DNA of 64,000 bases, from the NCBI GenBank assembly GCA_041738755.1, contig JBGSPE010000003.1, positions 62,602 to 126,601 on the forward strand. Direction: 5' to 3'. Shown here piece after piece: positions 36,711 through 58,372 of this stretch (its first letter is position 1; the number at the start of each line of letters is the position of its first letter). The stretch is from Minisyncoccia bacterium. GTDB taxonomy: Bacteria > Patescibacteriota > Minisyncoccia > Phycocordibacterales > UBA918. The notes beneath the pieces are model-generated. The model was not told where the DNA came from. It worked only from the letters and a program-made list of their open reading frames with translations, and searched no databases. The translations under genes and the position numbers were made by a program.

Positions 36711-37750
36711 TATGCCTTACGCTTAAATTCAAATCGCTTAAAGAAAAGTCGGAAACTAAAAATAAAAATGAGGAGAATGAGAAATATTCCACCAATAATT
36801 TTATACGGAATTACCCAGAAAGAGGTCGTGACGGTATCTACGATATCATCGTAACCACGATTTATTTGCGCTGTAACAGTATACCGGCCAAGGAGCAATT
36901 CTCTGTCCCAGGTGAGTTCACGCACCCGCAGTGACTTCGGTAAAACAAACCACGGTTCAAGCTCAATGTATCCTACCTCTTCACCAAACATATTGGTGAT
37001 AGAAATTTCTCCGTACGGATTCACATGAACAGACCCGGTATTTTCATACAAAATTCCCAAATCAATAGGACCTTCTTGGTACCACCAGGCATCACCTACT
37101 GTACTAATACTTTTGGTTTCACCTGAGGTTTCAATGTCTCCTTCAACAGTAATGAAAAAGAGTGAACCAATCCGAGCAATAACTGGTGACCGTGGTCCGT
37201 CAGCAATTTGATTCTCATCAATGCGAACGGTAGAGACTAAAACACTACCGTAGTAGCCCCCTGGTTCTACGTCTGGTGGGATGCTGATTGTTACAGGAAT
37301 ACGAGCTCGCTCACCAAGCTTCAGCTGGAAGGTATCTTGCGGCACCGATACATAATCTCGAATACTATACGGACCGCGAGTTTCACCAGTCAAACTGGCC
37401 GCCCCACTTCCATCAGTACTTCCAACAATATCTTCAATTTCTAACTTAAATTCTCGATTGTCACTAATTCGGTTGGTAACCGAAATTTCTCGGACTACTG
37501 TTTGTCCTGGTTGTAAAGCAATTTCAGTTCGGCCTGGACCAACCACAAAATCTCCGACCGCAATGTCATTACCAGAGATTTGTTCAGAGACGTACCAATT
37601 TCCTGATGGAATAGCACTATCCGGTGTGGTGGTCGGTGTTGTGGTGGCACCCGGAAGAGTTTCATCAGCTTGTGCACCAACTTCGAAGGTAGGTAGTAAC
37701 AGCGTTACAAAAAGAAAGAATATGAGAGCTTTTTTGCCTGTAGTCGCCAT
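36710..37750 (-). CDS. Secreted protein with a C-terminal TM anchor and basic tail (DUF916-like arrangement)
   Basis: Signal peptide 'ALIFFLFVTLLLPTFEVGAQA'; ~300-aa beta-rich ectodomain; C-terminal 'IIGGIFLILLIFIFSFRLFFKRFEFKRKA'. Confidence 0.6.
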   Translation of the reverse strand: MATTGKKALIFFLFVTLLLPTFEVGAQADETLPGATTTPTTTPDSAIPSGNWYVSEQISGNDIAVGDFVVGPGRTEIALQPGQTVVREISVTNRISDNREFKLEIEDIVGSTDGSGAASLTGETRGPYSIRDYVSVPQDTFQLKLGERARIPVTISIPPDVEPGGYYGSVLVSTVRIDENQIADGPRSPVIARIGSLFFITVEGDIETSGETKSISTVGDAWWYQEGPIDLGILYENTGSVHVNPYGEISITNMFGEEVGYIELEPWFVLPKSLRVRELTWDRELLLGRYTVTAQINRGYDDIVDTVTTSFWVIPYKIIGGIFLILLIFIFSFRLFFKRFEFKRKA

Positions 37751-37772
37751 AATCTGTGACCTTCAGGGTACC

Positions 37773-38486
37773 TTATATATTAAAGAGAGACAAGGTCGCT
37801 GTTGCGGTGTAGGTTTGAGCTGTTAGGGCTGGTGTTGCCGCATTAGGAACATGCACTCGAAATTGCAAGGTAGTTGTAGCTCCTGTTGGGGCAGCTGAAC
37901 CCCGGTTTACAATTTCAAATGGCGTTGTACTTGGTGCTTTCCAGCAGTGCTCTCCTGTGTCAGTACCAGCTGGTACATTACAGGCATTTGAACCGTTATG
38001 TAAGAAGGCATCAGCAGTATCAGGAGTCGAAGAAGAGAAGACTGAGTACGCAAATTGGGCAGATCCAGTTGTTGTAAAGTTATATGAAGGAAAGCCACCT
38101 ACGTCCCCAGCATAGTCAACGATTGATTCACTGTCATCAATATCTCCAATCATAGCTTGCGGGGTGCCATTATCGAAGAAATCAATCTCAACCCGATAGC
38201 CAGCCGCATTGTTTGAAAGGACAGAGAATCTCGTTGTACCAGTCGCATTTCCTCCCGTGAGACCATTGATACTACCGGCCATAGTGACATTCACTGGATC
38301 CACCAAGAAAGAACTCTCAGCAATAATAGTCTGTCGAATCCGAAAATCAGGCGTGGTATCAACCTGTCCCCGGCTGATTTGTGGCTCAAACGTAAAGTAA
38401 CTGGCAAACAAGACAGTCATGAGCGCAACGGTTATAACTAATGATTGCTTACTAATGAGCAAGAGGTTTTTAAGTGGGACGTTCAT
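37773..38486 (-). CDS. Small secreted beta-rich protein, paralog B
   Basis: Signal/TM '[16 protein letters not shown]'; '[19 protein letters not shown]...[34 protein letters not shown]', same Cys-x12-13-CW and C-terminal pattern as paralog A. Confidence 0.6.
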
Positions 38487-38587
38487 AATGGTTTTAATTT
38501 TATACTCTTATTTTATAATAATTTTGTGGGTTTTTTCGTCAAAATTGAAGGTTCTGTGTATAAGTTACTCAAGTAAAAGCAGGATTT

Positions 38588-41500
38588 TTAGATATCTGCG
38601 CCTCCCCCGCTACCACCACCTGACGCTTGGTTGTAGACTCGAACCTGGATTTCATCCAAGCTAAAGACACTTGTCTGATCAGCAGTTAATCTCACTCTGA
38701 AATTTGTATTACTAAATTCTGCTACAGACCATGGTGTTCGACCCCACAAGTCTGACGGTCCGCCCGCAGTCAAAACCACATCCGAACTGGCGACATTAGT
38801 TAACTCTTTGGTATCAGTCCATGATGAGCCACCATCCCATGACAACTGAGCGGAGAGTATAGCGGTTGGATTTGAACTTCTTATCTCCAATTTTATTTCA
38901 ATACCCTGGATAGTATTACCAGTATTTATTGGGAAACTATGATTTTGCCAAACTGAAGGATTAGTGTTATTGGCAATTGCACGCGTTTCATCAACCCCAT
39001 CATAAGAATTAGCAATATCTCTCCAACCACTACCTCCTGTTGGCCGTCTAAAATTTGGATCATTCCCAATCTGCTCACCCGGACCAGCCCCTCCACCAAC
39101 AACAATCCCGTCACCCACAGGTGCTTCTCCTCCAATATCACTCGCTCGTCCTCCCCCGCCACCGCGTGATTCAAATCGACTATGTTGCCTTGGACTCACA
39201 CTACCGAAGATATCTTGTACTCCATTTTCATCTTCAGCCACCACTCCACCAGGGTAGAGATTAATAGTCACGGCAGAGTCTCTTGGTGGAGCATTCCAGT
39301 CAGCTACTACGAGGTAATTTTGTGCACTTGAAGTACTAATAACAAAATCTTCATTGAACACAATTGTGCCAGTCTCTGACTCAGCATCAATTATCATAAC
39401 GCCAGTGCCAGCAATCACTTCATCACCAGCAAGCCCTCCATTAAACTCACCACTAGGCATTAAGTCTCTCACGAGTCGAATATTGGTAAAGTCTGCGGAA
39501 TCAATATTAGTTACACCACTCAAATCAAAAGTAAGACTGGTCAAAGTCGCAGTACCACTTTCAGGAATGAGTTTAAAAGCAAATAATTCCTCGTCAGTCT
39601 TGTTTTGGAAATTAAAGGCGTTACTCACCTGCCCCTGATCATGGTTTGCAATAGTGCTACTACCACTGATTGCCTCGTTTACAAAGAACCAATTAGTATT
39701 ATTGCCACCATCAACAGAACTAGTGGCCGAGATAGAAGTAGAAGCAAACGAATCCTTTACATCGACAAACTCTACATTAATTTGTGAGCCAGACACATCA
39801 AGCCCCCACGCTGTCCCACTTGCAGTAGAGCGAAGATATACTTCGTTACCAGCAGTACCAGCCAAATCGATATTTTGGATAGTACTGGTTGCTCCTGCCA
39901 AAAATGCCGCTGACGTACCGGGGAGCATCGTATAGGTATTTGTCACAGTTAGTGGTGCACCGTAGGTTACCGACTGAGTGGTGGAGCCATTTTGTGATTC
40001 GTTAGTAACAGTTAGATTATAGAATTCAAGCGTTCCTGTCGCTACCTGCGCTGCCACACCACCAAACACAACCGTACTCGTTGCCGGTTCAAAACTTCCC
40101 GCGTTTGTAAAGTCACCTAATATAGATAACTCATCTGTGACTTTGAGACTACCGTTTTGGGAAATTTGTACATCACTGGTTGAAGCGGTAACGATGTTGG
40201 CCGTCTGGCCAATGACTTGACGGTTATTTATAAGTGAATTCACCCCACCATCATCTCTAAATCCAACCACAACATATAATCCTTCTCCAAAGGTAACTCC
40301 AGTTGCAAATTGATCCCCAGCAGAACTCGTCAGAGATTGTGGACCCCAAGTAATACCATCGGAAGACGTTATCGCCGTAGGCACAAATGCTAACAGATCA
40401 AAATCAATTGTACTTCCAACAGCAATAAATTCGTTGTTACCATACTCCACATCATACAAGAAGCCAGCAAATCCCGGAGTCACACCAAGACTCCAGTCCG
40501 TCCCATTATTTGAATACATAATGACATCACCAGTTTCATCTGGCCCTAGTGCGCCCACCGCTACAAACTGACCATTTCCATAGGTGACGCTTTGCCAATC
40601 ATCATCGTTGCCAAGGGCCGATTGAGCTGTCCAATTGATGCCGTCTGGTGAGGTCATAATCCTAGTAGTACCCGTTGCTGCCACCGCCACAAAGAGGCCG
40701 TCACCGTAGGTTACCCCAGTCCAGGAATCATCATTGCCCGCTGCCGAGCGGTCAGTCCAAGTGACACCGTCGGATGAAGTATAGATACGATTTTCGGTAC
40801 TGACAGTGGTATCACAAACTTCACCAGTAAGTCCGCAAGATACCGCAACAAACAAACCATCTCCGTACGTAACGCTTTGCAAAGGAACCGAGGCAATAGT
40901 TTGAACTATCCACGTGATGCCGTCGGATGAGGTCATGACTCGGTCAGTACCTGGTCCATTACCAACCGCTACAAACTGACCATTGCCGTAGGTGACACCT
41001 GCCCAAGCGTCGTTATTTCCAGCAGCCGACTGAGCAGTCCAGGTTTCGCCATCGGGTGAGGTCATCACAGCATCTCCAACGCCAGTGGCGTCACCGACTG
41101 CCACAAACGTACCGTTACCGTAGGCGATATCTAACCAAGCATCATCATTATTTACCGCACTAATCGAATTCCAAGACGCACTGGCTTGAAATACACCATC
41201 CACCACCACATCATAGAGTCGATTGGTACCACTAAAATCACCTGTTAAATCGCTATCACTACCACTCAAATACAAGGTAGTGTTAGAAAAATCAATATCT
41301 CCGTTTTGGGTAAAATCTCCCGTGACGGTTAGTTCAGTGTGCGGATCCAAGGTTCCACTGCTGGAAATCGTAAGGTCAGTAACAGATACATTAGTAATGA
41401 AATCAATAGTACCAGTAACAGCGACATCACCAAGCTCTGGTGTTGCGACGGCAGTAGAGACGGTTTTGTTGCTACCGCTCAAGAACAATGTGCCGTCATT

Positions 41501-44500
41501 CAACAAACTGCCGTTACCTACTAAATCACCAGCTACTGAGAGTGATGTAGTACTTATAAGGGTAGTGTCAGGGGCAATAGTAAGATCGCTCGTTGAAGCC
41601 ACACCTATAGTAGCAATCCCGCCCTGTTCGTACATAACCCGCTGTGTACCGGCAATGGCAACAGCGACTGACGTTCCTGCTCCAGAGGAAACTGCTTCTA
41701 GTTGTACTCCCGTACCCGCAACTGTACTGGTTGCCCAAGAAATACCATCGAGAGATGTCATAACCTGAGCGTTATTCGAAACATCAACACCAACCGCCGT
41801 AAAATAGCCCTGCTCATATATAACGTCTTTCCATTGACCAACCGGAGCAGTCTGAGTTGTCCAGATGATGCCGTCAGGCGAGGTCATGACGTAGTCATCA
41901 CTACCACCACCCACAGCCACAAAGGTACCGTTACCGTAAGTAACACCTTGCCAGTTATCAGTGTCTCCGTCGGTTGCTTGGGCCGTCCAAGTAATACCAT
42001 CGGGAGAGGTCATAACAGCGTCTCCAAATTCGCCATTACCTACAGCCACGAAGGTGTCATTACCATATGCAGCATCACTCCAGTAATCATTGTTCCCCGC
42101 TGCGGTCGTAGTCGCCCAGCTGAGACCATTGGTTGAGTACATCACCACATCATCAGCAGCAACATTAAAACTAGACGGTGTGCCGACAGCCACATAGGTT
42201 CCATTCCCATACGTGACACCGAACCAGTTATCATTATCTCCCGCAGCACTTCCAGAAGTCCAATTGATACCGTCCGGTGAGACAGCTACCGATGGTGTAA
42301 GACCAACATACGGGATACCAACCGAAACAAACTGCCCACCTGCGTAAATGATATCAAGACCTAGATAAAGTCCAAATGGAGAGTCAGTCGTAGTGGTTGC
42401 CCATGATATACCATCCATTGAGTACATAATCTCATCATTAGAACTTAATCCACCAATTCCAACTGCGACAAAGGTATTGGTACCGTACGCGACACCGTAC
42501 CACTCTTCATTATTACCAGCTGCACTTTGGGTTACCCATCCATCTGTCCCAGTGGGGTCAATCACCACATCACCAAGTGTGTTACTGCCGCTAAAGTTAC
42601 CTGATAATTGCGGTAATGAACCTCCTACAATCAATGTCGTTTCAGAAAAATCTATTGAACCATTTTGTGTAAAGTCACCGTTTAACGTTAAGTTTGCGGT
42701 TGGAGCGAAGATAGTAGACGACGCCACAAGCAACGCCGCTGAAGTGGCGGTTGAACCAATTGATGTAGTTGCACCATCTACATCAAAGAGAACGTCTCCG
42801 TCATCATCAAAATCATAAAATGCTGCTGTACCAAGATCTATCTCCCCGGTCGTACTTGAGTGTTGCAATCGTACAGTATCCGACCACAAATCAATATCCA
42901 AAATATCAGTCTCACCATTAAGGTACGTCAGTGTAGTGGCACTGGTCGTAGCAGACTCATCGACAAAAAGAGTGAGCGGGGTGGTTTCATTAAAAGCGGG
43001 TGTACCCTCTGCGTACATCACCCGGTCGCCAGAAGAACTAACGGCTACAAATTGACCGTTGCCGTACGTGACACTCTGCCAGGAATCATTATTTCCTACC
43101 GCCGTACGAACAGTCCACGTCACACCATCCGGTGAAGTCATGACTCGGTCAAGACCAGTACCTACCGCGACAAAGAGCCCATTGCTGTACGTGACACTTT
43201 GCCACGAGTCATTATTTCCGGCGGCAGTCGAGGTGGCCCAGGTGATACCGTCAGTTGAGACCATGACGCGGTCACTCCCCGAATTTCCAACCGCTACAAA
43301 CAGACCGTTGCCGTACGTGACACTCTGCCAATTATCATTGTTATCAGCTGCTGATTGAACCGTCCAATTGATACCATTGGAGGAAGTCATGACGCGGTCG
43401 CCAGAGTCACCCACGGCTACAAAAAGACCATTAGCGTAGGTGACACTACGCCAGGAATCATTATCTCCAGCAGCTGTTGAGGTCGCCCAATTGATACCAT
43501 CGGAGGAAGTCATGACTACATCTTCCGTTCCGAGGTTTCGAACACCGACTGCCACAAAGAGACCATTTCCATAGGTCACACTTTGCCAACGATCATTATT
43601 TCCAGCCGCTGGACGAGCGGTCCAAGCAACACCATCAGATGAAGTCATGACACAATCATCGGCACTTCCATCCAAAACTGTACAACCTCCCACAGCCACA
43701 AAGAGACCATTGGCATAGGTGACACTACGCCACGTATCATTGTCCCCAGCGGCAGTTGAGGTGGCCCAATTAAAACCATCTACTGAAGTCATGACTCGGT
43801 CTGCTGTGATACCAACCGCTACATATAATCCATTATTATAAGTAACACTATTCCACATATCATTATCTCCAGCGGCGGTTGTTGTAGACCAACCACTTAG
43901 TCCTACTTCCTGATACTCTGGTAACGTAAGACTGAAGTTTCCAAAAGCATCAGTTGTGGTACTAAATGTATTCAACACATCGATACTACTATCTGCGTAC
44001 ATTACTCGGTCCCCTGAGTTACCGACCGCTACAAAACGATTGTTTGCAAAGGTAACAGCCAGCCAACCGTCATTATCACCGGCGGCAGGGCGGGCGGTCC
44101 AATTGATGCCGTCAGGAGAGGTCATGACGGTATCAGGACCTTCACCGACTGCTACAAATAATCCGTTGCCATACGTAACGTCATACCATAAATCGTCATC
44201 GCCAGCGGCAGACCGAACAGTCCAAGTAATACCGTCAAGAGAGGTCATGACTCCGTCAGTACTCGGACCAGTACCGACAGTCACAAACAGTCCGTTGCCA
44301 TAGGTGACACTTTGCCAAGTATCATTATTACCGGCAGCAGACTGCACGGTCCAGGTAATGCCGTTTGAGGAAGTAATGACACGGTCACCGAAACTACCAA
44401 CCGCTACAAACAGTCCGTTGCCGTAGGTGACACTTTGCCAGAAATCGTCATTTCCAGCCGCAGACTGCACGGTCCAGGTAATCCCATCAGATGAGGTCAT

Positions 44501-45739
44501 GACGCATTCTACATCTGAAAGGCAAGAACCGACTGCTACAAACAGTCCGTTGCCGTACGTAACATCCCACCACGAATCATTATTACCGGCGGCTGAGCTT
44601 GTTGCCCAGGTAATCCCATCAGATGAGGTCATGACGCGGTCGCCAAAAACACCAACCGCTACAAACAGTCCGTTGCCGTAGGTGACACCAAGCCACTGAT
44701 CATCATTACCAGCGGCTGAGCTTGTTGCCCAGGTAATCCCATCAGATGAGGTCATGACTTGGTCAAGCCCTGTAGCGACGGCAACGTAGGTGCCATTACC
44801 ATAAGTGATACTTTGCCAAAAGTCATCATTTCCAGCCGCGGTTGTAGTTGCCCAGTCACTCAATATTGTCTCAGTACCTAATGGTGTTACAACAGAGGCT
44901 GTAACAGTACTTGTTGCAGTAATTGGGGTACTACCATCACTTTCGTATAACGTTCCTGAAAGAGTAATTGGCCCACCACTCGGTTCACCCATAACCTCAG
45001 CTAACGCCACTGCTACCATCGCCGCATCATCGGTCGCTTGTGTCCAACCAGCAGTTACGTCGGTACTAGCAACGGTGTCGTAGGTATAAAAGCCCGCTAA
45101 TTGTGCTCCAAAATCTTCCTCATCGCGACTCGTCCAACCAGAGAGCGGTGTTATGCCCGTGACTGCTGCGAGCCCAGAAAAGAGCCCGAGCGAAACATGC
45201 GCAGTCCGACCAGACAAAGGTACGGTGACGCTAGGATTAACAGCGTTAGCAACAATTGAATTATCAAAAGCCACTACTTCAGTATCAGCGCCAGCTGTAA
45301 ACGTATAAGCCACTGCATGCTTCCCTCCTCCGCCGGTTTCATTGACCGATACTGTTTGGGCACCAGTTGGAATACTGGACGTACCAACGTACGCATACAC
45401 ACAGGCTGGTTCCGTCACCGTGTCACATGCTCTAGCAACCCTCGTAAGAGTCAAACTCCCATACGTCACACTATCAATCCGATCAGCTGCAGAGGTATTT
45501 TGCACAATATATACCAACACTCCACGCGGTGTTCCAACCGGCGTATGAGTCCAACTAAAATCTACTGTTGATCCCGCAGCGACATTGCCATCTTCAGAAA
45601 ACGCATCGAACGCTACCGCGGCCTCTGCGGTGACAGCTGAAACAAGGAAGCTTCCAAAGGCAAACAAAACCCCAACCGTCATACATATATATGTACGGTA
45701 CGTTGCTTTGAAAGCTGATTGTATATGAAGTATTTTCAT
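38588..45739 (-). CDS. Giant secreted protein (2383 aa) built of ~30+ tandem Asp-box-like (S-x-D-G-x-T-W) propeller-blade repeats with a Gly-rich C-terminal domain
   Basis: Signal peptide 'MTVGVLFAFGSFLVSAVTAEA'. ~45-aa unit 'vMTSsDGiTWatssAAGNnDsWqsVTYGNGLFVAVG' repeated throughout. C-terminus poly-Gly 'GGGGGRASDIGGE...' and 'GGGSGGGADI'. Confidence 0.7.
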   Translation of the reverse strand: MKILHIQSAFKATYRTYICMTVGVLFAFGSFLVSAVTAEAAVAFDAFSEDGNVAAGSTVDFSWTHTPVGTPRGVLVYIVQNTSAADRIDSVTYGSLTLTRVARACDTVTEPACVYAYVGTSSIPTGAQTVSVNETGGGGKHAVAYTFTAGADTEVVAFDNSIVANAVNPSVTVPLSGRTAHVSLGLFSGLAAVTGITPLSGWTSRDEEDFGAQLAGFYTYDTVASTDVTAGWTQATDDAAMVAVALAEVMGEPSGGPITLSGTLYESDGSTPITATSTVTASVVTPLGTETILSDWATTTAAGNDDFWQSITYGNGTYVAVATGLDQVMTSSDGITWATSSAAGNDDQWLGVTYGNGLFVAVGVFGDRVMTSSDGITWATSSAAGNNDSWWDVTYGNGLFVAVGSCLSDVECVMTSSDGITWTVQSAAGNDDFWQSVTYGNGLFVAVGSFGDRVITSSNGITWTVQSAAGNNDTWQSVTYGNGLFVTVGTGPSTDGVMTSLDGITWTVRSAAGDDDLWYDVTYGNGLFVAVGEGPDTVMTSPDGINWTARPAAGDNDGWLAVTFANNRFVAVGNSGDRVMYADSSIDVLNTFSTTTDAFGNFSLTLPEYQEVGLSGWSTTTAAGDNDMWNSVTYNNGLYVAVGITADRVMTSVDGFNWATSTAAGDNDTWRSVTYANGLFVAVGGCTVLDGSADDCVMTSSDGVAWTARPAAGNNDRWQSVTYGNGLFVAVGVRNLGTEDVVMTSSDGINWATSTAAGDNDSWRSVTYANGLFVAVGDSGDRVMTSSNGINWTVQSAADNNDNWQSVTYGNGLFVAVGNSGSDRVMVSTDGITWATSTAAGNNDSWQSVTYSNGLFVAVGTGLDRVMTSPDGVTWTVRTAVGNNDSWQSVTYGNGQFVAVSSSGDRVMYAEGTPAFNETTPLTLFVDESATTSATTLTYLNGETDILDIDLWSDTVRLQHSSTTGEIDLGTAAFYDFDDDGDVLFDVDGATTSIGSTATSAALLVASSTIFAPTANLTLNGDFTQNGSIDFSETTLIVGGSLPQLSGNFSGSNTLGDVVIDPTGTDGWVTQSAAGNNEEWYGVAYGTNTFVAVGIGGLSSNDEIMYSMDGISWATTTTDSPFGLYLGLDIIYAGGQFVSVGIPYVGLTPSVAVSPDGINWTSGSAAGDNDNWFGVTYGNGTYVAVGTPSSFNVAADDVVMYSTNGLSWATTTAAGNNDYWSDAAYGNDTFVAVGNGEFGDAVMTSPDGITWTAQATDGDTDNWQGVTYGNGTFVAVGGGSDDYVMTSPDGIIWTTQTAPVGQWKDVIYEQGYFTAVGVDVSNNAQVMTSLDGISWATSTVAGTGVQLEAVSSGAGTSVAVAIAGTQRVMYEQGGIATIGVASTSDLTIAPDTTLISTTSLSVAGDLVGNGSLLNDGTLFLSGSNKTVSTAVATPELGDVAVTGTIDFITNVSVTDLTISSSGTLDPHTELTVTGDFTQNGDIDFSNTTLYLSGSDSDLTGDFSGTNRLYDVVVDGVFQASASWNSISAVNNDDAWLDIAYGNGTFVAVGDATGVGDAVMTSPDGETWTAQSAAGNNDAWAGVTYGNGQFVAVGNGPGTDRVMTSSDGITWIVQTIASVPLQSVTYGDGLFVAVSCGLTGEVCDTTVSTENRIYTSSDGVTWTDRSAAGNDDSWTGVTYGDGLFVAVAATGTTRIMTSPDGINWTAQSALGNDDDWQSVTYGNGQFVAVGALGPDETGDVIMYSNNGTDWSLGVTPGFAGFLYDVEYGNNEFIAVGSTIDFDLLAFVPTAITSSDGITWGPQSLTSSAGDQFATGVTFGEGLYVVVGFRDDGGVNSLINNRQVIGQTANIVTASTSDVQISQNGSLKVTDELSILGDFTNAGSFEPATSTVVFGGVAAQVATGTLEFYNLTVTNESQNGSTTQSVTYGAPLTVTNTYTMLPGTSAAFLAGATSTIQNIDLAGTAGNEVYLRSTASGTAWGLDVSGSQINVEFVDVKDSFASTSISATSSVDGGNNTNWFFVNEAISGSSTIANHDQGQVSNAFNFQNKTDEELFAFKLIPESGTATLTSLTFDLSGVTNIDSADFTNIRLVRDLMPSGEFNGGLAGDEVIAGTGVMIIDAESETGTIVFNEDFVISTSSAQNYLVVADWNAPPRDSAVTINLYPGGVVAEDENGVQDIFGSVSPRQHSRFESRGGGGGRASDIGGEAPVGDGIVVGGGAGPGEQIGNDPNFRRPTGGSGWRDIANSYDGVDETRAIANNTNPSVWQNHSFPINTGNTIQGIEIKLEIRSSNPTAILSAQLSWDGGSSWTDTKELTNVASSDVVLTAGGPSDLWGRTPWSVAEFSNTNFRVRLTADQTSVFSLDEIQVRVYNQASGGGSGGGADI

Positions 45740-45742
45740 AGG

Positions 45743-48700
45743 TTAGCTGGTTGGTTCACTTGGAGTTGGTAATGGTTCTGGTTCGGGAGTTAGCTCTGGT
45801 TCTGGCTCGGGTTCTGGTTCTGGTAGCGGCTCAGGGGTTGGCTCTGGTTCTGGAACTACCGGTTCCACTGGTGGTTCAACGCTTGGCTCTGGTGGTCCGC
45901 CTTCCCCGCTTTGACCACCTCCTCCACTCGTTTCATCAACTGATTCCTCATCTGTTGGTTCAGCTGGCGGGTTTGGTGGCTCTGATTCAGGAGTTGGTTC
46001 TGGTTGTACGGGTGCTGGAGTGCCGTCAATATTATTGTTATCAAGCAACTGCCGTAAATCATTGGCGTCGATACACACTCCATCCACACACAATTCTTCT
46101 TTTACCTCGATTCGGTTCGTCTTAATGCCAGCCACTTGTAGGATTCCGTCAACGAATCCTTGCGCCAGAGATACCAATCTATCAAACAGTGTCTCATCAA
46201 TATTTTCTCCTACCGTTTGAACTGATGATGTACTCATAAGCGAAGCTAGGCTAGCCGCTTGCGTTTCACCGATGAAGCGGTAGCTCAAATCAACAAACAT
46301 CACGATTTGTCCTACTTGTACTGATTGACCATTAACATCCCGAGTCTCACTTGGCGTACCAGCCAACCCTGCGAGCTGCTCTGCCACACTCTGATCTGCC
46401 AAGACTTGATTAGCACTATTAATCTGCTCAATCATCGATTCGCCGTTCAAGGGCACACACGGTGAACCATTATCAGCTCCACCACCGTAGTAACATCCGT
46501 CATGGACCCGTGGATCATTTGGGTCAGTGATTGGTTGGTATACCGGGTCAACCAAATCATCACCAAACTGATTGATGAAGGTTCGAGAATATTTTCGTGA
46601 TGAATCAAAGTCTTCAAGCGCGATACCAACAACCGTACCTGTTGCAGTCGCCTTCATTGCTACCCCCGGAAGTGAAGATAATGTCAGTTGATCACCTTTT
46701 TTAATTGGACCATTTTCAGTTGAAAGTTGAATTGGGACACGACCTGAGAGCGCAATTGGATACGCCGTCTCACCAGCTCTCGTTGACTCATCATCTGCTC
46801 CCATTAATACACCTGGCTTAGTTGAGACCACACCGATAATCGGGTCAGTTCCTTCATCTGCCCGAACCACTGAAAGCTCACCATCGAGTGAAACAATTTC
46901 TCCGGTCTCAAGTGACTGGCTTGAGAAATACATTTCAGCGAGGTCAGAGTTACCGGTGAATTGTGAGACTGAAGCAATTCGTCCTTGCACTGACGCAATA
47001 CAAGCACCGTCATTGTCGACACAGATACCACCTCGTCCGATTTGGAGTCCAGCCATATTGGTTCCGTCTCCAATCGTCGTCGTACCGTACGCAGTTACAT
47101 TAAAGACTGATGTATTGGTGTTACGGAAATCAACAAAGCGTGAGGTGGTTGATGAGAATGACCCGCCACTGTTACCAAAGTTAAGCTCAAGTCCTGTTCC
47201 AGTAAAGGTCGAGGTATCTTGGAAGAGGCTCATGAGTGTTGCGCTTGTAATACTTGAAGAGAACCCGCGAATGGCATTGCCCTGCGTAGTGCCTCGCGTC
47301 TGGAAGAAGCCTCCAGCTGGAGCTAGTACGCCACCAGCATCCCCTTCAGTGATACCCCGAACTCCAAAGGTTCGTCCCGTTCCAGAAATAGCCGTATTCT
47401 CTCCTTGTGTATTGCTACCCCGGTTGGTTTGAATCTCAAGACCTCGAACCGTATTTCCAAAAATGGTATCGTCTTCAACCCGAAAAATACTGCCGATGAT
47501 AGTTGTGGTAGCGGTGTTATTTGCATCAAGGTTAAAGAAATTACCGTATTGCAATGCCCCATTAGAACTATTGGTAGTCGTAATCCACTGCTGAAGCGCT
47601 GCGGTACCAGTACCAGTGAGACTATCTACCTGTAATGCCAACCGAGAACTTGGTGATGTCGTCCCAAGGCCGATGTTGCCGGTAGTGAGGTTACCGTATA
47701 GCGCATTCCCAAGACTCAAGAAGTTACTCGTACCACTCGTCGGTAACTCTATGTTGTCACCAATTAAAATATTGTTACTGCCCGTACTCGTGTTACTACC
47801 GGTATTATCACCAAGGAAGATATTGTTGTTGCCGGTTACACCCGCACCAGCAAAATTACCGATGAAAATATTTTCCGTCCCCTCACTATCTGTACCAGCT
47901 GATTGACCAATGGCGATAGTGTAGTCTGCTAAGGTATCACGGAGCGCCGATGTTCCAAGAGCGATATTGAAATCCCCAGTGGAAGCAAACACCCCAGCAT
48001 CAGTACCTATATAGGTATTATTACTTTCTGTTGTGAGGCTAAAACCAGCACTTTTACCGAACAATACATTACCATCTCCACTAGTCACAGACCCTCCTGC
48101 GCTAATACCAAAGAAGGCATTGTTGCTACCAGTCACACCACTATGCATGTCATTAAATTCATTCAGTCCAAACGCTACGTTGTAATTAACATCATTAGCT
48201 GACAGTAACCCATCTCCGTTGTATCGCACAATTGAACCAGTCGTGAGATTAATATCCCCTGCAACGGTAAGTCGACTACTTAGAGTAGTCGTCCCGATTC
48301 CGATATTTCCACTAGAATCAATCAACATCCGAGATGTTCCACCGACTGAAAACCCTAACGTATTAGTACCACCAAACATTCCAGTATCGGTATCATTTTC
48401 AAATGAAAATGCCGGCGCATTAGCGAGACTGGTACTTAAACGTGCGAGACCAACACTACTGATATAAGCAGCTCCGCCAAAGTTAAATTCTCCTGTAAAA
48501 TCTCCAGTGACACCGCTCAAAGTACCAGTAACATTTGCGTTACCTGCGACAGTGAGGAGTTGAGATGGGGTAGTGGTACCAATCCCCACATTACCACTCG
48601 CATCAATCCGAAGTCGTTCGGTGCCAGCAGTGGAGAAACCAAGAATATCAGTACCACCTCTGAACATACCGGTATTAGTATCACCACTAAAAGAAAAACT

Positions 48701-51700
48701 TGGTGAACTAGTTGACCCATCCATCATTCGAATACCAAATAAGTCAGTGATGTTATAGTTCAAACTTGTGAGATTTATTTGATCGGACGTAACGTCAAAT
48801 TCTAAACCTTGAATATAAACACCCGTAATGCCTCCTACACCGACCCTTAAATCATTACCATTATCAGCAATCACTAAATCTGCAGTGGAACCAGAATTAA
48901 TTTTAAATCCATTATTTCCAAAACCAATTGAGCCTACGTCTCCTCCGTCACCATCATTAAATTGAATCAAGGTACTTGGTCCAGCGGTAGCAATATTATC
49001 GAGTCCGCCTTGGATCAAAAGACCTGAGCGATTGGCATTATTACCATCATTCAAAATAGCTGCCGCAAAGTCTGCCGCATCTGCAAAGACATTGAGGCGT
49101 GAGGTACCACCGGTACCACCAATTGAGAGATTGTCGGTGAGTGAGGTGAGGTAGGTGTTAGCACCTCCGTCAGTGAAGAGTGATGCTCCACCTGAGATTC
49201 CAAGTGTCGAAGTCGCCACCCAGTTAAACCCTGAGCCAGTGCTCTGGAGGACCATACCGTTTGAGCCGGTACTTGAGGCGTTGTCGACGAGGGCTCCGGT
49301 GATACGAACGCCGCCAGCGACTGTGAGACGTTGTGAGGGAGTGGTGGTTCCGATGCCCACGAGGCCACTGGCGTTAATACGGAGGCGTTCGGTAGCAGCG
49401 GTACTAAAGCCAAGTTGGTTGTTGGCTGCCGAAAACATTCCATTATCAGCGTCCAAATCGACACCGAAATCAACGTTAGTTGGACTACCTGCACTATCAG
49501 TAGTGTATCTAAAAGCTTCGATGATTCCAGAGGTATTATTATAATACAGACTACCATCACCAAAGTTAACACCCGATGAATCAATGACTAACATTTCAGT
49601 GCCTCCAGCTCGTACTGAAATTACATTTGAAGACTCTGCAGTAATTCCCGTATCAGCATCCCCTACAAAGCTAAGTCCGCCGGTACCGAGAGCCCCTTGA
49701 GCCAAGAAAAGTGTGTCCGTAAAGAGACCGCCGCCAGCAACGGTGAGAGCTTCACTTGGTGATGTGGTACCGATACCGATATTCCCGCTTGCATCAATGC
49801 GGAGACGTTCGGTACCGGCAGTTGCAAAACCGAGAATATCAGTAGAGGTACTAAACATACCGGTATCAGTATCTCCGCTAAATGAATACACAGGGGTAAC
49901 TGCACCACCTAGCTTACCAGGCGTAATTTTAAAACTTCCATCGATAAATGATCCTGGTAGATCGAAGCGAAGATCAGCTCCCCCATACACTTCAAAGTCT
50001 CCACCTTGAACATACAGATTCGTTATGTCAGCGCCGGCAGTTGAAATGCCACCGCCACTTAAAAACTGAGCAGCAATTGCTCCATCAACTGTCGCGACGA
50101 GAGCGCCAGAAGTGCGATAAAACCCAGTATCAGTATCAGCTGCAAAGGTAATAGACGGAGCACTAACAGTTCCTGTTGCTGCCCGAAACGCCCCTGTCAT
50201 CGCGACTGAACCATTAGCCAGGAAGTCTCCAGACCCGAAGCCAAGCGTACTGGTTGCTACCCAATTAAATCCAGAACCAGTGCTTTGGAGGACCATACCG
50301 TTTGAACCAGTACTTGAGGCGTTATCAACCAAGGCTCCCGTGATGCGGACACCGCCAGCGACGGTGAGACGTTGAGATGGGGTGGTGGTGCCAATCCCGA
50401 CAAAGCCATTACTATTTAATATAGTCAGGTCAGGTGCAATCAAATTTCCCACAGCTGAAAAACTCAAATTAGCATTTAACGATTGCCCAATCGAAGCACT
50501 ATCTGGAGTACCATCAGCGTCACTGATAAAGAGCAATTGCGCTACGTTCCCAACCCCAACATTATCATTTGTCGATAAAATAAAGTCGACCTGTCCAGTA
50601 TTTTTATGAATGTGCAATAGACCTTCAGGAGTAGTAGTACCGATGCCGACATTCCCACTCGCACCAATCGTCAATCGTTCAGTACCATTTGTACTAAATC
50701 CAATGAGTCCATAATCAGAACTGAACATACCACTACCACCAAAGTTAAACTGTGGTGCCGATTCGGTACTTGTTCCAAATGACTTAAACGCCACTGAATT
50801 CACACCTCCAGGATCAATAAAGGTTGAAACGTCAAAAAATCCAACTTCAAATTCGTTTAAAAATATTGACGGCACCCCGTTAGCGACCAGTCTTATTTCG
50901 CCCGCTAATTCACTCTCAATTCCAGTATCCGTATCTCCAGCAAACGAAATTCCTCCGGTACCGAGAGCCCCTTGAGCCAAGAAGAGAGTATCTGTCATGT
51001 CGACAGAGCCATCCGCGAAAAAGTCTCCGCCGCCTCCGCCAGAAATACCCAATGTCGACGTCGCCACCCAATTGAAGCCGGTGCCGGTACTTTGGAGGAC
51101 CTGTCCTGTAGTACCACTGGCATTATTGCTATCAAAGAGGGCTCCGGTGATACGGACGTTACCGGCAACTGTGAGACGCTGACTTGGAGTACTTGTCCCA
51201 ATTCCCACGTTGCCACCGCCCGAAATAGTCAAAATATTTGTATTTCCTCCAGCACCAATATTAAGATTACGACTTGATTGTGTTGAGTAGATAAATGCAT
51301 CTAAATTCCCTGATGTTTCAACTCCCATAAACAGATCGGGTCCGGCAACATTACCATGATCAAACCTGATTTGATTGTTTGTAACATTAATTTTCGCACG
51401 ATCTTGATTCCCCAGGTCAGTCTGTACTGTAAACACCTCATTCCCCGTATCATCAAATACCGCCAATGCTCGAGCTTTAGAATCCTGAATGGTTAAAGTT
51501 CCAGGAGGTGATGTGGTGCCAATTCCAACATTTCCACTACTCAACAGAGATAAGGCTGGCGTTGAAGAAAGTCCACTTGCCGAAGCGTTGGTACCAAGGT
51601 AAATATTTTGTGCTCCCAAAAATAATTCGTTTCCAGTGTAAATTGCCGCGTCGTTCTCAACCGAAAAACCATTCATGACGTTGGTAAGCGTTGACAATGA

Positions 51701-53674: not shown

Positions 53675-54429
53675 GGCGATTGTTGATTAAGTGGAACAGT
53701 GATGACAGGAATTTCAGCGCCGATGATTTCGCTCTGCCCATTCACTTGACTCACGAATTTCTGCCCTGAAGCATCGGTGCGAATGACAATCCGATCAGAA
53801 AATAAATCTTGTAACTCTAGTAATTCACCTTCACTCAGCTGTGATGGGAGTAGCAAAATTCCTTCCGTACTCGACGCAAAGCTTCGTACCTGATCAGGTA
53901 CTGTTTTGAAATCTGCGGTATAGACGTCTGCTTCTGGTGTTGATGCAAGAGTGGTCACCACCGGAGGTGCAGGCGTCACATCAGTGGCCAAGAGTGAAAG
54001 TGACGAGACTTTGGTACTGGCTACCTGGACCTCAGGATTGGTGAGTTGTGAGAAGGTATTCTCAAACAAGTACCCGCTAAAGAGTCCAAGGAAGACTGCC
54101 GCTGCCACGACCACTTTGGTGCGATTGGCTTTGACTCGGTGCGCCTTTGCTCGAGCTACCTTTCTTTGCGTCACCTCTTCTCGCAATGAGCGTTCCTGTT
54201 TTCTTTCTTCACTCAGTTTTTGTTTTCGGATGGATTGCTCAATCTCCATGATGGATTCGTAGTGCTTGAGTGACTCAACGTCGATGTACCACTGGCGGCC
54301 AATGTGGCTGGCGACGATTTTCCCCTCCCGAGCAAGTCTGGTGATGTAGTCACTTGAGTAACTGACGAGCGCGGTGGCTGACTTTATGCTGTGGAGTTTT
54401 TTGCCGTCGATTTCAAGAACCTTTGCCAT
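53671..54429 (-). CDS. Membrane-tethered HTH protein (excisionase/MerR-type HTH_17-like N-terminus, single TM, ~130-aa extracytoplasmic C-terminus), paralog 1
   Basis: 'HSIKSATALVSYSSDYITRLAREGKIVASHIGRQWYIDVESL', then a Lys/Arg/Glu-rich helix, TM 'VVVAAAVFLGLFSGYLF'. Its stop overlaps the giant gene start (ATGA at 53671-53674). Confidence 0.6.
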   Translation of the reverse strand: MAKVLEIDGKKLHSIKSATALVSYSSDYITRLAREGKIVASHIGRQWYIDVESLKHYESIMEIEQSIRKQKLSEERKQERSLREEVTQRKVARAKAHRVKANRTKVVVAAAVFLGLFSGYLFENTFSQLTNPEVQVASTKVSSLSLLATDVTPAPPVVTTLASTPEADVYTADFKTVPDQVRSFASSTEGILLLPSQLSEGELLELQDLFSDRIVIRTDASGQKFVSQVNGQSEIIGAEIPVITVPLNQQSP

Positions 54430-54494
54430 ACTGTTGTAACTTTAATTATAAAGCTAAAACGGGAAAAACTGGCAGGCAAAATGTGTATAAAAAA

Positions 54495-55427
54495 CTACGG
54501 GAGAAGGAGTAAAATATTTGCGAGTGCAACGTTCAAGCTTGAGTCATACTCACTACCTGAAGCAGAGATTTCTAAGTTGGTTGCCAAAAGTCCAAAACTT
54601 ACAAGGAAGGCACCGACGACCGCTAAGGCTGGTACTAAGAGACTGGTTTTTGTCGCTGGTTGTTGTGTCCGTGTTTTTGAAACAGTTGCTTTTGGAATAT
54701 TACCAGGGGTAAAAGATGTCGGAACGGTAGATTGTGCGTGAGTGCTTAGTGATTGTACAGACGGCGTTACTGAATGTCTTTGTACCTGGGGTTGAATTGG
54801 GCGCTTAACGGCTACTCCCGGACGTCGTGGGCGTATCATCACGGCTTTTTTAGCCACTGCAGGGGCAATGACTGGTATTTCCTCAGGGATTACAGGCGTT
54901 TCTTCTTCATCTGAGATATCAGCAATTACCAAAGTTCCTGACAACGCTACCTCAGGCAACGGTTCAGGCTTGAAATTAGTAGGTTTTTTATTCTCAGTAC
55001 TGATTTTAACCTTTTCTGAATCAGCGATATTGACGTTGAGCCGAGTTGGCTTGGAGTGCTTCTTCACACTCGGCATGAGTGACTGATCGTCTTCTTCGTA
55101 GGAAACCTCAGTCCGTGAATCTAACCCGTTTTGACCGAGAACGATTCTGGCTGTTTTATTTTTCAGATATGGTTCTACGGCTACCCGAGATACGTAGTTT
55201 TTACTTACTACTTTCTCTGTTATCTCGGATTCGTTAGTAGTCTTGTACTTACCATCTCGGTGCTCAATGAGTGAATCTTCGTGTATATACCATGCTCGAC
55301 CGACTAATCTCGCGTCGACTTTTTTAGCTCGAGCGAGCTGCCCGAGATAATCAGGAGTGTAGCGATATTTTAAAGCCAAGCTGGTAGCTTTAATATATTC
55401 TCGGCCATGAAAAGTAACTGCGTCCAT
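54495..55427 (-). CDS. Membrane-tethered HTH protein, paralog 2 (same N-terminal domain, long Pro-rich linker, TM near the C-terminus)
   Basis: 'EYIKATSLALKYRYTPDYLGQLARAKKVDARLVGRAWYIHEDSL'; TM 'LLVPALAVVGAFLVSFGLLATNL'. ATG at 55427 preferred over the TTG at 55433. Confidence 0.6.
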   Translation of the reverse strand: MDAVTFHGREYIKATSLALKYRYTPDYLGQLARAKKVDARLVGRAWYIHEDSLIEHRDGKYKTTNESEITEKVVSKNYVSRVAVEPYLKNKTARIVLGQNGLDSRTEVSYEEDDQSLMPSVKKHSKPTRLNVNIADSEKVKISTENKKPTNFKPEPLPEVALSGTLVIADISDEEETPVIPEEIPVIAPAVAKKAVMIRPRRPGVAVKRPIQPQVQRHSVTPSVQSLSTHAQSTVPTSFTPGNIPKATVSKTRTQQPATKTSLLVPALAVVGAFLVSFGLLATNLEISASGSEYDSSLNVALANILLLLP

Positions 55428-55443
55428 ACTCAAGTAGTGTATC

Positions 55444-55470
55444 AGAAAAACCCCTCTTGCAAGGGGCCCT
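55444..55470 (-). terminator. Rho-independent terminator downstream of gatB, ~20 nt before the start of HTH paralog 2
   Basis: Minus strand: CCCCU-UGCAAG-AGGGG followed by UUUUUCUGAU. Confidence 0.5.
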
Positions 55471-55494
55471 TACTAACGAAACCGGGTATTACTT

Positions 55495-56916: not shown

Positions 56917-56924
56917 AATGTGTG

Positions 56925-57902: not shown

Positions 57903-57959
57903 CCTGGCACAGTACCGTACTTGCCCATATTATGCAATAAAAATAACGTTCGATAAGAA

Positions 57960-58362: not shown

Positions 58363-58372
58363 TTGATTTCGA

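What the first reader, a model, noticed from the sequence alone, without database searches (positions are those of the whole stretch)
38588..45739. 2383-aa protein made almost entirely of ~45-aa Asp-box-like (S-x-D-G-x-T-W) blades, roughly 5 consecutive beta-propellers
The motif 'MTSsDGiTWa...AAGNnD.WqsVTYGNGLFVAVG' recurs more than 30 times with high identity. That is enough blades for several 7-bladed propellers in tandem, a rare architecture usually linked to carbohydrate binding (sialidase, GH74, sortilin-type Asp-boxes). High DNA-level identity between blades implies recent expansion and recombinational plasticity. The C-terminus is Gly-rich with no obvious anchor.
Basis: seen in the sequence. 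Interest (0 to 1): 0.5.

Follow-up and report, generated by a model that had tools for sequence, protein, structure and literature searches.

The report
Four-propeller surface protein, Patescibacteria
This is a real 2383-residue secreted protein of an ultrasmall (Patescibacteria) bacterium that carries four seven-bladed beta-propellers of a very common but unstudied repeat family also used in phage tail fibres, so it is most likely a cell-attachment protein rather than a rare or new kind of molecule.

Summary
The ORF (38588..45739, minus strand, 2383 aa) and its repeats are real. There are 28 repeat units, 24 of them with a clean S-x-D-G-x-x-W motif. They form four blocks of exactly seven units and cover 51% of the protein.

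An AlphaFold2 model of block 1 (pLDDT 91, pTM 0.92) is a closed seven-bladed beta-propeller. The motif sits in the strand 3-4 hairpin. It is the 7-residue "short Asp-box", not the canonical 8-residue Asp-box. The nearest solved relative is Ycf48 (profile E 9e-6, also the top Foldseek hit).

The family is very large: 65,117 cluster representatives, with seven-unit blocks dominating. It occurs in giant Patescibacteria proteins, in Bacteroidota proteins with T9SS secretion tails, and in more than 537 viral stretches. Three viral loci examined in detail place it in tail-fibre or baseplate gene modules.

The gene has a signal peptide and paired cysteines. It also has a conserved C-terminal cassette of two beta-sandwiches that resemble CBM32 domains. 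It lies 3 nt downstream of a tail-fibre-like giant gene.

Best reading: a multivalent surface adhesin or receptor-binding protein. The fold is shown; the function is inferred. Recent repeat expansion and rarity are not supported. The finding is ordinary to moderately interesting.

The parts
38588..45739 (-). Whole coding sequence, 2383 aa plus stop. An alternative start is the ATG at 45682 (M20), used by the NCBI and Logan gene calls.
   Evidence: (P0001 is 100% identical, 2364 aa)
45620..45739 (-). N-terminal signal peptide or signal anchor, aa 1-40. It has K/R residues, then the only strongly hydrophobic stretch of the protein (aa 18-37), then AEA|AV.
   Evidence: Read from the sequence; hydropathy scan. 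No dedicated signal-peptide predictor was available.
44861..45619 (-). N-terminal globular domain of unknown fold, aa 41-293. It is 64% identical to the same domain in relatives P0005 and P0008.
   Evidence: no Pfam or PDB match
43985..44860 (-). Propeller 1, aa 294-585, 7 blades.
43004..43897 (-). Propeller 2, aa 615-912, 7 blades. It is 67% identical to propeller 1.
42545..43003 (-). Spacer 1, aa 913-1065. It is T/S/G-rich and looks like a beta-solenoid by sequence pattern only.
   Evidence: no Pfam hit
41621..42544 (-). Propeller 3, aa 1066-1373, 7 blades, more divergent.
41180..41620 (-). Spacer 2, aa 1374-1520. Only faint beta-solenoid or haemagglutinin-repeat hits, all below threshold.
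40244..41179 (-). Propeller 4, aa 1521-1832, 7 blades, the most divergent.
39620..40243 (-). Region aa 1833-2040 that ends in ...DGGNNTNWFF. It is shared with giant proteins of Planctomycetota, Omnitrophota and Peregrinibacteria.
   Evidence: no PDB sequence match
39170..39619 (-). C-terminal cassette, first beta-sandwich, aa 2041-2190.
39074..39169 (-). Disordered Gly-rich linker inside the cassette, aa 2191-2222.
   Evidence: pLDDT below 50
38618..39073 (-). [not shown]
38591..38617 (-). Gly-rich C-terminal tail GGGSGGGADI. The type GGGGGGGG[E/D/A][I/L/V]-COOH is conserved in relatives.
45743..53674 (-). Neighbouring gene, probably in the same operon. It encodes a 2643-aa tail-fibre-like giant protein with an intramolecular-chaperone (Peptidase_G2) domain. 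Its stop codon lies 3 nt before the ATG at 45739.

Best explanation
The gene encodes an exported, cell-surface or secreted multidomain protein of a Patescibacteria bacterium of the Paceibacteria/Parcubacteria group.

Shown:
- Domain order: an N-terminal signal sequence, a 250-aa head domain, four closed seven-bladed beta-propellers, and two spacers of about 150 aa between the propeller pairs.
- After the propellers comes a 208-aa region, then a conserved C-terminal cassette of two beta-sandwiches joined by a floppy glycine-rich linker.
- Each blade is held together by two conserved structural motifs: the Y-G-N-G turn between strands A and B, and a short Asp-box (S-x-D-G-x-T-W) hairpin between strands C and D.

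From published knowledge of Asp-box propellers: both motifs should lie on the 'bottom' face. The B-C loops then lie on the opposite face. These loops vary in length (3-16 residues), and three of them carry cysteine pairs. The variable residues flanking the conserved Trp lie on that face too. This is the only face known to carry function in Asp-box propellers.

Inferred:
- The four propellers are ligand-binding heads displayed in series, which would give multivalent attachment to another cell's surface, presumably that of the host bacterium of this epibiont.
- The CBM32-like C-terminal cassette would bind a glycan, either on the producer's own envelope as an anchor or on the target.
- The protein probably acts together with the tail-fibre-like giant protein encoded immediately upstream.

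For: Lineage: the profile matches Ycf48 at E 9.3e-6.

Seven-unit modules are the rule in the family: 253 of about 386 blocks in 120 homologues have exactly seven units.

Export:
- There is a single N-terminal hydrophobic segment.
- The 8 non-signal Cys form 4 close pairs.
- The composition is very acidic.

Adhesin-type company:
- Homologues carry T9SS sorting tails, fn3, Ig-like, MBG, YDG and InlB-B repeat domains.
- Some homologues carry the Peptidase_S74 tail-spike chaperone domain.

Use in viruses:
- More than 537 IMG/VR stretches encode the same propeller at up to 58% identity.
- The viral genes are often 330-450 aa single-propeller genes in tandem paralogue arrays. The propeller is at the C-terminus in 44 of 88 complete ORFs.
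- L090, L054 and L025 place these genes between baseplate, tail-fibre and endolysin genes.
- In L018 and L064 the propeller is fused to tail-fibre domains.

Neighbour: the gene upstream matches three PHROG tail-fibre families and has an intramolecular-chaperone domain.

C-terminal cassette:
- It is conserved at the extreme C-terminus of at least 29 relatives.

Organism: the SecA relatives are Parcubacteria-group bacteria.

Context from the literature: epibiotic growth of Patescibacteria needs several adhesins (PMC10633639). A heptabladed propeller on pilin PilX2 is needed for host binding in TM7x (PMC11623550).
Against: - No ligand, partner or localisation has been shown for any member of this repeat family.
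- The protein itself matches no PHROG, NCBIfam or PADLOC-type named family. The only Pfam match is a sum of partial EPTP hits.
- The most conserved loop on the presumed functional face (AAGNND) is nearly the same in most blades, which fits a structural role as well as a binding role.
- Face assignments come from the strand order in the model plus published generalisations. I could not inspect the coordinates.
- Some IMG/VR contigs may be misclassified cellular DNA. Only 5 viral loci were checked for true phage genes.
- No membrane or cell-wall anchor was identified.
Confidence: 0.6

Rival explanations
1. The propellers are catalytic. They would be an array of glycoside hydrolases or lyases in the manner of sialidases (GH33), GH74 xyloglucanases or virginiamycin B lyase, used to digest a host or environmental polysaccharide.
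Against: No Pfam, NCBIfam or PDB sequence match to any hydrolase or lyase family. Identity to the lyase is 9%. Catalytic Asp-box propellers are irregular, with few conserved repeats, whereas here all conserved positions are the repeated structural ones. Four divergent copies in series, and single copies in phage tail-fibre modules, fit binding better than catalysis.
Confidence: 0.08
2. It is a structural envelope or coat protein (S-layer-like, spacer or scaffold). The propellers would be rigid building blocks with no specific foreign ligand.
For: The protein is very large, acidic, rich in Thr/Ser/Gly and exported. Its loops are highly regular and look alike across blades. Other large surface proteins with fn3, CARDB or DUF11 domains are encoded nearby. 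No ligand is known.
Against: The same propeller sits at the distal end of phage tail-fibre genes and in tandem paralogue arrays typical of host-range cassettes. It also occurs in Bacteroidota proteins with T9SS secretion tails and adhesin-type domains. The variable-length loops cluster on one face.
Confidence: 0.2
3. The repeat number or layout is an assembly artefact: units have been collapsed, expanded or mis-joined in a short-read metagenome assembly.
For: An independent Logan contig ends at window 44729, exactly where the most similar units begin (86% identity, a 47-bp exact repeat). The stretch 39375-44728 has no independent cover here.
Against: Most unit pairs are only 56-70% identical at DNA level, too divergent to collapse. 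The frame stays open for 7152 nt. Every block has exactly 7 units, as in 253 blocks of other proteins. Relatives P0005 and P0008 have the same head domain followed by four propeller blocks, with 6-7 units detected per block (P0008 ends within a fifth block). Both gene ends match independent assemblies with 0 mismatches.
Confidence: 0.05
4. The two giant genes are part of a prophage or phage-derived element, so the protein is a phage tail fibre or receptor-binding protein rather than a bacterial adhesin.
For: The upstream gene matches tail-fibre PHROGs and has an intramolecular-chaperone domain. The next gene upstream has a weak excisionase-like HTH. The propeller family is common in viral contigs.
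Against: The flanks hold no capsid, terminase, portal, baseplate or lysis genes. They hold GatB, Obg, SecA, GAPDH, pentose-phosphate enzymes and RF. The protein has a Sec-type signal peptide. The C-terminal cassette is shared with many giant Patescibacteria proteins. The only tRNA is far away.
Confidence: 0.07

Closest known systems
Ycf48 / HCF136 (photosystem II assembly factor; PDB 5ojr, 2xbg, 8am5_S)
   Same: It is a single closed seven-bladed propeller of the Asp-box lineage. It is the only solved protein found by sequence profile (E 9.3e-6 over profile positions 7-259) and is the top Foldseek hit (E 1.7e-11, TM 0.75). In the solved complexes it is bound to a peptide of the D1 protein (entry titles).
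   Different: Identity is 13-16%. Ycf48 has one propeller, not four, and no regular short Asp-box in every blade. It works in photosynthetic membranes, which this organism is not expected to have (my knowledge of Patescibacteria; not tested here). No PSII_BNR Pfam match was reported for the query.
Canonical Asp-box (BNR) propellers: sialidases GH33, GH74, sortilin Vps10 domain
   Same: Both have a Ser-Asp-Trp hairpin between strands 3 and 4 of the blades, on the face opposite the functional one (PMC2716378). Both are widespread in secreted bacterial proteins.
   Different: The motif here is one residue shorter (S-x-D-G-x-T-W, which fits the s-Asp-box pattern S/t-x-D/n-x-x-x-W/f/y). [quoted passage not shown] The blades here are very regular, while classical Asp-box propellers are irregular with 6, 7, 8 or 10 blades. 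There is no hydrolase signature, and Pfam BNR reaches only E 2.2.
EPTP / EAR repeat propellers (Pfam PF03736; LGI1, ADGRV1)
   Same: This is the only Pfam family above its whole-protein cut-off (42.8 bits against 21). It is also a seven-bladed extracellular propeller (my knowledge of the family).
   Different: The score is a sum of many partial matches, each covering about 18 of the 42 profile positions. No single stretch passes on its own (stretches = 0). The EPTP family is metazoan.
DUF6242 (PF19755; e.g. Bt3727 of Bacteroides thetaiotaomicron, co-purified with BamA)
   Same: Several homologues of the query match it at E 1e-10 to 1e-21 over profile positions 124-217. It is an envelope lipoprotein domain of unknown function (bioRxiv 10.1101/2025.01.31.636011).
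   Different: The query itself gives no DUF6242 hit. DUF6242 is largely restricted to Bacteroidia.
Phage tail-fibre and baseplate-module proteins of IMG/VR contigs that carry the same propeller
   Same: The same seven-blade module occurs at 40-58% identity over about 285 aa. It lies in tail-fibre or baseplate gene modules or is fused to tail-fibre domains.
   Different: The viral genes usually have one propeller per protein, have a median length of 480 aa, often form tandem paralogue arrays, and lack the Patescibacteria C-terminal cassette. None has been characterised experimentally as far as I could find.
Other propeller-bearing attachment proteins: PilX2 of Saccharibacteria TM7x, and giant RCC1-repeat proteins of Oscillospiraceae
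   Same: PilX2 carries a heptabladed propeller and is needed for host binding by an epibiotic Patescibacteria bacterium. The Oscillospiraceae proteins are giant extracellular proteins built of serial seven-bladed propellers.
   Different: Those propellers are RCC1-type, a different repeat family. PilX2 is a pilin.

Membership tests
Beta-propeller fold (seven-bladed) | Four-stranded antiparallel blades arranged radially, with ring closure by a strand from the other end of the domain | tested here: met
   [not shown]
Canonical Asp-box / BNR repeat (Pfam PF02012) | The 8-residue core S/t-x-D/n-x-G-x-T/s-W/f/y | tested here: not met
   The units read S-x-D-G-x-T-W, which is 7 residues from Ser to Trp. 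Pfam BNR reaches only E 2.2. The definition is from PMC2716378.
Short Asp-box (s-Asp-box) of Quistgaard and Thirup 2009 | S/t-x-D/n-x-x-x-W/f/y forming a hairpin between strands 3 and 4 of a blade | tested here: met
   The pattern is present in 24 of 28 units. In the model the motif (e.g. residues 38-44 of block 1) lies between strand E34-38 and strand E45-48. The 7:7 hairpin geometry itself was not checked because the coordinates could not be inspected.
Asp-box propeller lineage (PSII_BNR / sortilin / SGL supercluster) | Detectable homology to an established member | tested here: met
   The profile of 27 propellers matches Ycf48 (8am5_S) at E 9.3e-6, positions 7-259 against 44-303. Ycf48 chains rank first in Foldseek. 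Assignment of the PSII family to the Asp-box group is from PMC9218822.
EPTP / EAR repeat (PF03736) | Match of whole repeats to the 42-position profile | tested here: inconclusive
   The whole-protein score of 42.8 bits exceeds the cut-off of 21, but no individual stretch passes. The best stretch covers profile positions 15-32 only. Block 1 alone scores 20.2 bits, below the cut-off.
Glycoside hydrolases with Asp-box propellers (GH33 sialidase, GH74) | Sequence match to the catalytic family, or the catalytic residues | tested here: not met
   No such family was found in Pfam at E<=1, in NCBIfam at E<=0.1, or in PDB sequence searches. Catalytic residues could not be examined in 3D.
Phage tail fibre / receptor-binding protein | Match to tail-fibre families, or location in a virion structural module | tested here: not met
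   The query has no PHROG hit. Its flanks are chromosomal housekeeping genes. The propeller module itself does occur in phage tail modules, and the upstream neighbour does match tail-fibre PHROGs.
Sec-exported protein | N-terminal positively charged region, hydrophobic core and A-x-A cleavage site | tested here: met
   By inspection: MKILHIQSAFKATYRTY-ICMTVGVLFAFGSFLVSAVTA-EA|AV. This is the only hydrophobic 19-mer with mean Kyte-Doolittle above 1.8. No dedicated predictor was run. Cleavage versus signal anchor is undecided.
CBM32 / F5-8 type C / F-lectin jelly roll (for the C-terminal cassette) | Galactose-binding-domain-like beta-sandwich fold, and a sugar-binding site | tested here: inconclusive
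   [not shown]

The most novel reading that the evidence does not exclude
The short-Asp-box seven-blade propeller could be a receptor-binding module shared and exchanged between phages and epibiotic Patescibacteria. On this reading, this gene and the tail-fibre-like gene just upstream form a phage-derived two-component host-attachment apparatus. The bacterium would use it to recognise and hold its host cell, with the four propellers giving specificity in the way serial or tandem propeller genes do in phage tail-fibre modules.
Probability: 0.25. Interest if true: 0.6.

Novelty: new member of a known kind. Interest (0 to 1): 0.33.

Why it matters
How ultrasmall Patescibacteria recognise and hold on to their host cells is largely unknown, and few adhesins have been defined. 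This protein is one clear, well-delimited example of a very large family that has no dedicated Pfam or NCBIfam model, no close solved structure, and no experimental study that I could find. The family comprises at least 65,000 clusters at 50% identity. The same module turns up in phage tail-fibre gene modules, which gives a testable lead: the propeller may be a general cell-surface recognition device. If that holds, the family would be useful for predicting the host range of both phages and epibionts. As a single genome finding it is not surprising.

Tried and rejected
1. PDB sequence search with the whole protein returned only designed armadillo repeat proteins (E about 0.006). I rejected these as an artefact of a shared 42-residue period and 'AAGNN' strings.
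2. I looked for the source genome among GTDB representatives with the full protein. The window's own genome was not found. There was one good relative (a Saccharibacteria MAG, L001). The other 11 loci matched only the GNNTNW region.
3. Exact look-ups of P0001, the upstream giant protein and two downstream proteins in the assembly index found nothing. Look-ups of SecA, the 252-aa protein and the 237-aa protein did work.
4. NCBIfam gave no hit for either giant protein.
5. PHROGs gave no hit for the propeller protein or its C-terminal half.
6. PDB searches with the N-terminal domain, the aa 1833-2040 region and the C-terminal cassette profile found nothing meaningful.
7. The prophage idea was checked with PHROGs on six flanking genes and a tRNA scan. 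Only generic fn3-type hits and a weak excisionase-like HTH appeared.
8. I looked for positional orthology of each propeller with those of relatives P0005 and P0008. None is clear, and propellers 1 and 2 resemble each other most.
9. The promoter and terminator scan downstream of the gene gave nothing above the shuffled background.
10. Literature searches for DUF6242 and for giant propeller proteins in Patescibacteria found no study of this family.
Full report
**1. The observation**

The window has one long ORF at 38588..45739 on the minus strand, 2383 aa. An identical protein is on record from an NCBI contig of 161,768 bp, called from Met20 (2364 aa). Tandem Repeats Finder reports 123-bp arrays with 69-78% matches in parts of the gene.

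A motif scan finds 24 copies of x-x-[D/N]-G-x-x-W in four groups of six, spaced 41-51 residues apart. Each group is preceded by a degenerate leading unit. With a single-unit profile the protein resolves into four blocks of exactly seven units, 28 in all: aa 294-585, 615-912, 1066-1373 and 1521-1832. The blocks cover 1210 of 2383 residues, or 51%.

The repeat itself is real and far beyond chance. A profile of homologous propellers scores 1262 bits on this ORF and hits nothing else in the window.

**2. DNA-level similarity and assembly**

- Core units are on average 56% identical at nucleotide level, or 70% within blocks 1-2.
- The best pair, the adjacent units at aa 328 and 369, is 86% identical and shares the longest exact repeat in the gene, 47 bp.
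- Where two units have the same amino acid they use the same codon only 48% of the time.

This is old, selected repetition, not recent expansion. The one hint of homogenisation is that propellers 1 and 2 are 67% identical to each other. That is more than either is to any propeller of the closest relatives P0005 and P0008 (61% at most).

Independent Logan assemblies of two sequencing runs match the window without a mismatch over 44729..64000 and 37702..39374. Both ends of the gene are thus confirmed. One contig stops at 44729, right where the most similar units begin. The stretch 39375..44728 has no independent cover here. Gross artefact is unlikely for two reasons:
- Every block has seven units, as in other proteins of the family.
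- P0005 and P0008 share the head domain (64% identity) followed by four propeller blocks, with 6-7 units detected per block; P0008 ends within a fifth block.

**3. Fold**

I aligned block 1 with the other three blocks and 23 propeller segments cut from homologues (A1). AlphaFold2 gives a confident model with pLDDT 91.4 and pTM 0.92. It is all-beta, with a short N-terminal strand followed by seven sets of strands. The N-terminal strand completes the last blade and so closes the ring.

**4. The motif**

The canonical Asp-box is S/t-x-D/n-x-G-x-T/s-W (PMC2716378). Here Ser to Trp spans seven residues (S-x-D-G-x-T-W). That fits the 'short Asp-box' S/t-x-D/n-x-x-x-W defined in the same paper. Pfam BNR reaches only E 2.2.

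In the model the motif lies between the third and fourth strands of each blade (for example residues 38-44, between strands 34-38 and 45-48). Both kinds of Asp-box always lie there. The same paper states three things:
[quoted passage not shown] Here they occupy 24 of 28.
- Asp-boxes are structural and have never been seen to bind sugar.
- They lie on the face opposite the functional one.

The unit alignment shows which positions are conserved and which vary:
- Conserved: W-x-x-V-T-Y-G-N-G-L-F-V-A-V-G (strand A, turn, strand B), V-M-T-S-x-D-G-I-T-W (strand C and hairpin) and the A-A-G-N-N-D loop.
- Variable: the residues flanking the first Trp, strand D, and above all the B-C loop. This loop ranges from 3 to 16 residues, and three of them carry a Cys pair.

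**5. Family size and company**

A word-indexed search returned more than 1000 proteins. Most are 1400-4000 aa. Where named, they are from Patescibacteria, Minisyncoccia, Saccharibacteria and Bacteroidota (Flavobacterium, Cyclobacteriaceae, Bacteroidales).

Partner domains include T9SS sorting tails, fn3, Ig-like, MBG, YDG, InlB B-repeat and concanavalin-like domains. Several carry Peptidase_S74, the tail-spike chaperone.

An exhaustive profile search of 1.84 billion cluster representatives gives 65,117 hits at E<=1e-3 and 21,735 at E<=1e-30. All of the best 150 have 3-26 matched stretches, in proteins of up to 7363 aa. In 120 homologues, 253 of about 386 repeat blocks have exactly seven units and 12 have fourteen. 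The architecture is therefore common.

Even so, the query matches no NCBIfam model. In Pfam it matches only a sum of partial EPTP hits in which no individual stretch passes. Some homologues match DUF6242, a Bacteroidia envelope lipoprotein domain of unknown function.

**6. Viruses**

Of 600 stretches, 537 were confirmed, with up to 58% identity to block 1 over about 285 residues. Findings in the 80 loci kept:
- The propeller genes have a median length of 480 aa.
- The propeller ends within 60 residues of the C-terminus in 44 of 88 complete ORFs.
- Tandem arrays of two to four paralogous single-propeller genes occur in L042, L054, L062, L090 and L092.
- In L090 three such genes follow a tail-fibre gene and precede an endolysin.
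- In L054 they alternate with collagen-like tail-fibre genes.
- In L025 the propeller gene follows baseplate-wedge and minor-tail genes.
- In L018 and L064 the propeller is fused to tail-fibre domains.

This is the strongest functional lead: the module is used where phages place receptor-binding parts. One caveat is that only five viral loci were inspected, and some IMG/VR contigs may be cellular.

**7. The rest of the protein and the neighbourhood**

N-terminus and composition:
- The N-terminus has K/R residues, the only strongly hydrophobic stretch of the protein (aa 18-37), and an A-E-A|A-V site.
- The eight remaining cysteines form four close pairs.
- The protein is very acidic (D+E 10.8%, K 0.5%). 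All of this fits export.

C-terminal cassette:
- The last 343 residues recur as a unit at the very C-terminus of at least 29 relatives.
- AlphaFold2 (pLDDT 81) gives two beta-sandwiches, split by a disordered Gly-rich linker and followed by a disordered Gly-rich tail.
- If any part of this protein binds sugar, this cassette is the better candidate. The evidence is moderate.

Neighbourhood:
- The gene immediately upstream (45743..53674, 2643 aa) stops 3 nt before the ATG at 45739. It matches three PHROG tail-fibre families and has a Peptidase_G2 intramolecular-chaperone domain.
- The flanks are chromosomal: GatB, Obg, SecA, GAPDH, pentose-phosphate enzymes, RF and other large surface proteins.
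- There are no phage structural or lysis genes.
- SecA is 76-80% identical to proteins of Parcubacteria, Nomurabacteria, Kaiserbacteria and Paceibacteria. The organism is therefore a Patescibacteria bacterium of that group.

**8. Explanation and rivals**

Shown:
- An exported 2383-aa protein with four seven-bladed short-Asp-box propellers.
- Spacers between the propellers and a conserved C-terminal two-sandwich cassette.

Inferred:
- It is a multivalent attachment protein.
- The propeller faces bearing the variable loops bind a ligand on another cell.
- The cassette anchors to, or binds, a glycan.
- It probably works with the tail-fibre-like neighbour.

Published work shows that epibiotic Patescibacteria need several adhesins (PMC10633639). 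It also shows that a heptabladed propeller on a pilin is needed for host binding in TM7x (PMC11623550). Those propellers are of other families.

Rivals, with my confidence in each:
- A catalytic propeller array (0.08): no hydrolase signature, and the blades are too regular.
- A purely structural coat protein (0.2): not excluded.
- An assembly artefact (0.05).
- A prophage tail fibre (0.07): the flanks argue against it.

**9. Verdict**

The fold prediction is right. The counts, the rarity, the recent expansion and the carbohydrate inference are not. The protein is a new member of a very large, recognisable but uncharacterised propeller family. Interest is modest for this locus. The wider family and its link to phage tail modules deserve attention.

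Noticed in passing
window 45743-53674 (-): A 2643-aa protein with many 'GN(V/I)GIGTTTPSxxLTVAG' repeats. It matches three PHROG tail-fibre families and has a Peptidase_G2 intramolecular-chaperone domain at aa 2227-2293, followed by a Pro/Glu-rich tail. Its stop is 3 nt before the propeller gene's ATG, so the two genes probably form an operon.
   Followed up: partly
window 38591-39619 (-); also the C-termini of P0002, P0005, P0012, P0015, P0017, P0029 and at least 23 others: A conserved 343-aa C-terminal cassette: two beta-sandwiches, a Gly-rich linker, and a tail that nearly always ends GGGGGGGG[E/D/A][I/L/V]-COOH. A few relatives (P0009, P0039, P0051) carry about 40 further hydrophobic residues after the Gly run. 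It could be a sorting or anchoring signal particular to Patescibacteria giant proteins. No known family matches.
   Followed up: partly
window 44729 (end of Logan contig SRR28170465_50284 = L096): An independent short-read assembly of the same organism is identical to the window from 44729 to 64000. It breaks inside the first two blades of propeller 1, where the units share a 47-bp exact repeat.
   Followed up: yes
L042 1943-6403; L054 6758-9092; L090 7638-11455; L062 3505-8034: Viral contigs carry tandem arrays of two to four paralogous genes of about 330-450 aa, each with one propeller of this family. They sit next to tail-fibre genes. This looks like host-range cassettes.
   Followed up: partly
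window 39620-40243 (-), aa 1833-2040; loci L002-L012: The region ending in '...DGGNNTNWFF' is shared with giant proteins of Planctomycetota, Brocadiia, Omnitrophota, Peregrinibacteria and a Spirochaetaceae MAG. It is a separate, widely distributed module of unknown fold.
   Followed up: no
window 45682 vs 45739: The start codon is ambiguous. The ATG at 45739 gives a charged region ahead of the hydrophobic core, but it lies 3 nt after the upstream stop. Public gene calls use the ATG at 45682 (Met20). No clear Shine-Dalgarno sequence precedes either.
   Followed up: partly
window 2947-8328 (-) and 10041-13118 (-): Two further large probable surface proteins: 1793 aa with fn3 and CARDB domains, and 1025 aa with DUF11. 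The window is rich in envelope proteins.
   Followed up: no
window 34354-38486 (-): Four genes lie directly downstream of the propeller gene on the same strand: 237 aa, 346 aa with a weak WxL-interacting-protein peptidoglycan-binding hit (E 7.5e-4, below cut-off), 255 aa, and 526 aa with fn3. They may be further members of a surface-protein cluster.
   Followed up: partly
window 53671-54429 (-): A 252-aa protein with a weak HTH_17 / excisionase-like match (Pfam E 1.4e-4, PHROG E 2e-4). It overlaps the start of the tail-fibre-like giant gene by 4 nt.
   Followed up: partly
window 57960-58298 (-); L093 3670-4008: A small 112-aa gene between SecA and Obg is annotated with Phage_holin_4_2 in the precomputed Pfam hits.
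   Followed up: no
window 30184-32087 (-): Transketolase is split into two adjacent genes, one for the N-terminal half and one for the pyrimidine-binding and C-terminal halves. They sit next to ribulose-phosphate epimerase, RpiB and GAPDH.
   Followed up: no
protein aa 673-851: The whole-protein PDB search returned only designed armadillo repeat proteins (E about 0.006). The cause is a shared 42-residue period and 'AAGNN' strings, so this is a false lead.
   Followed up: yes
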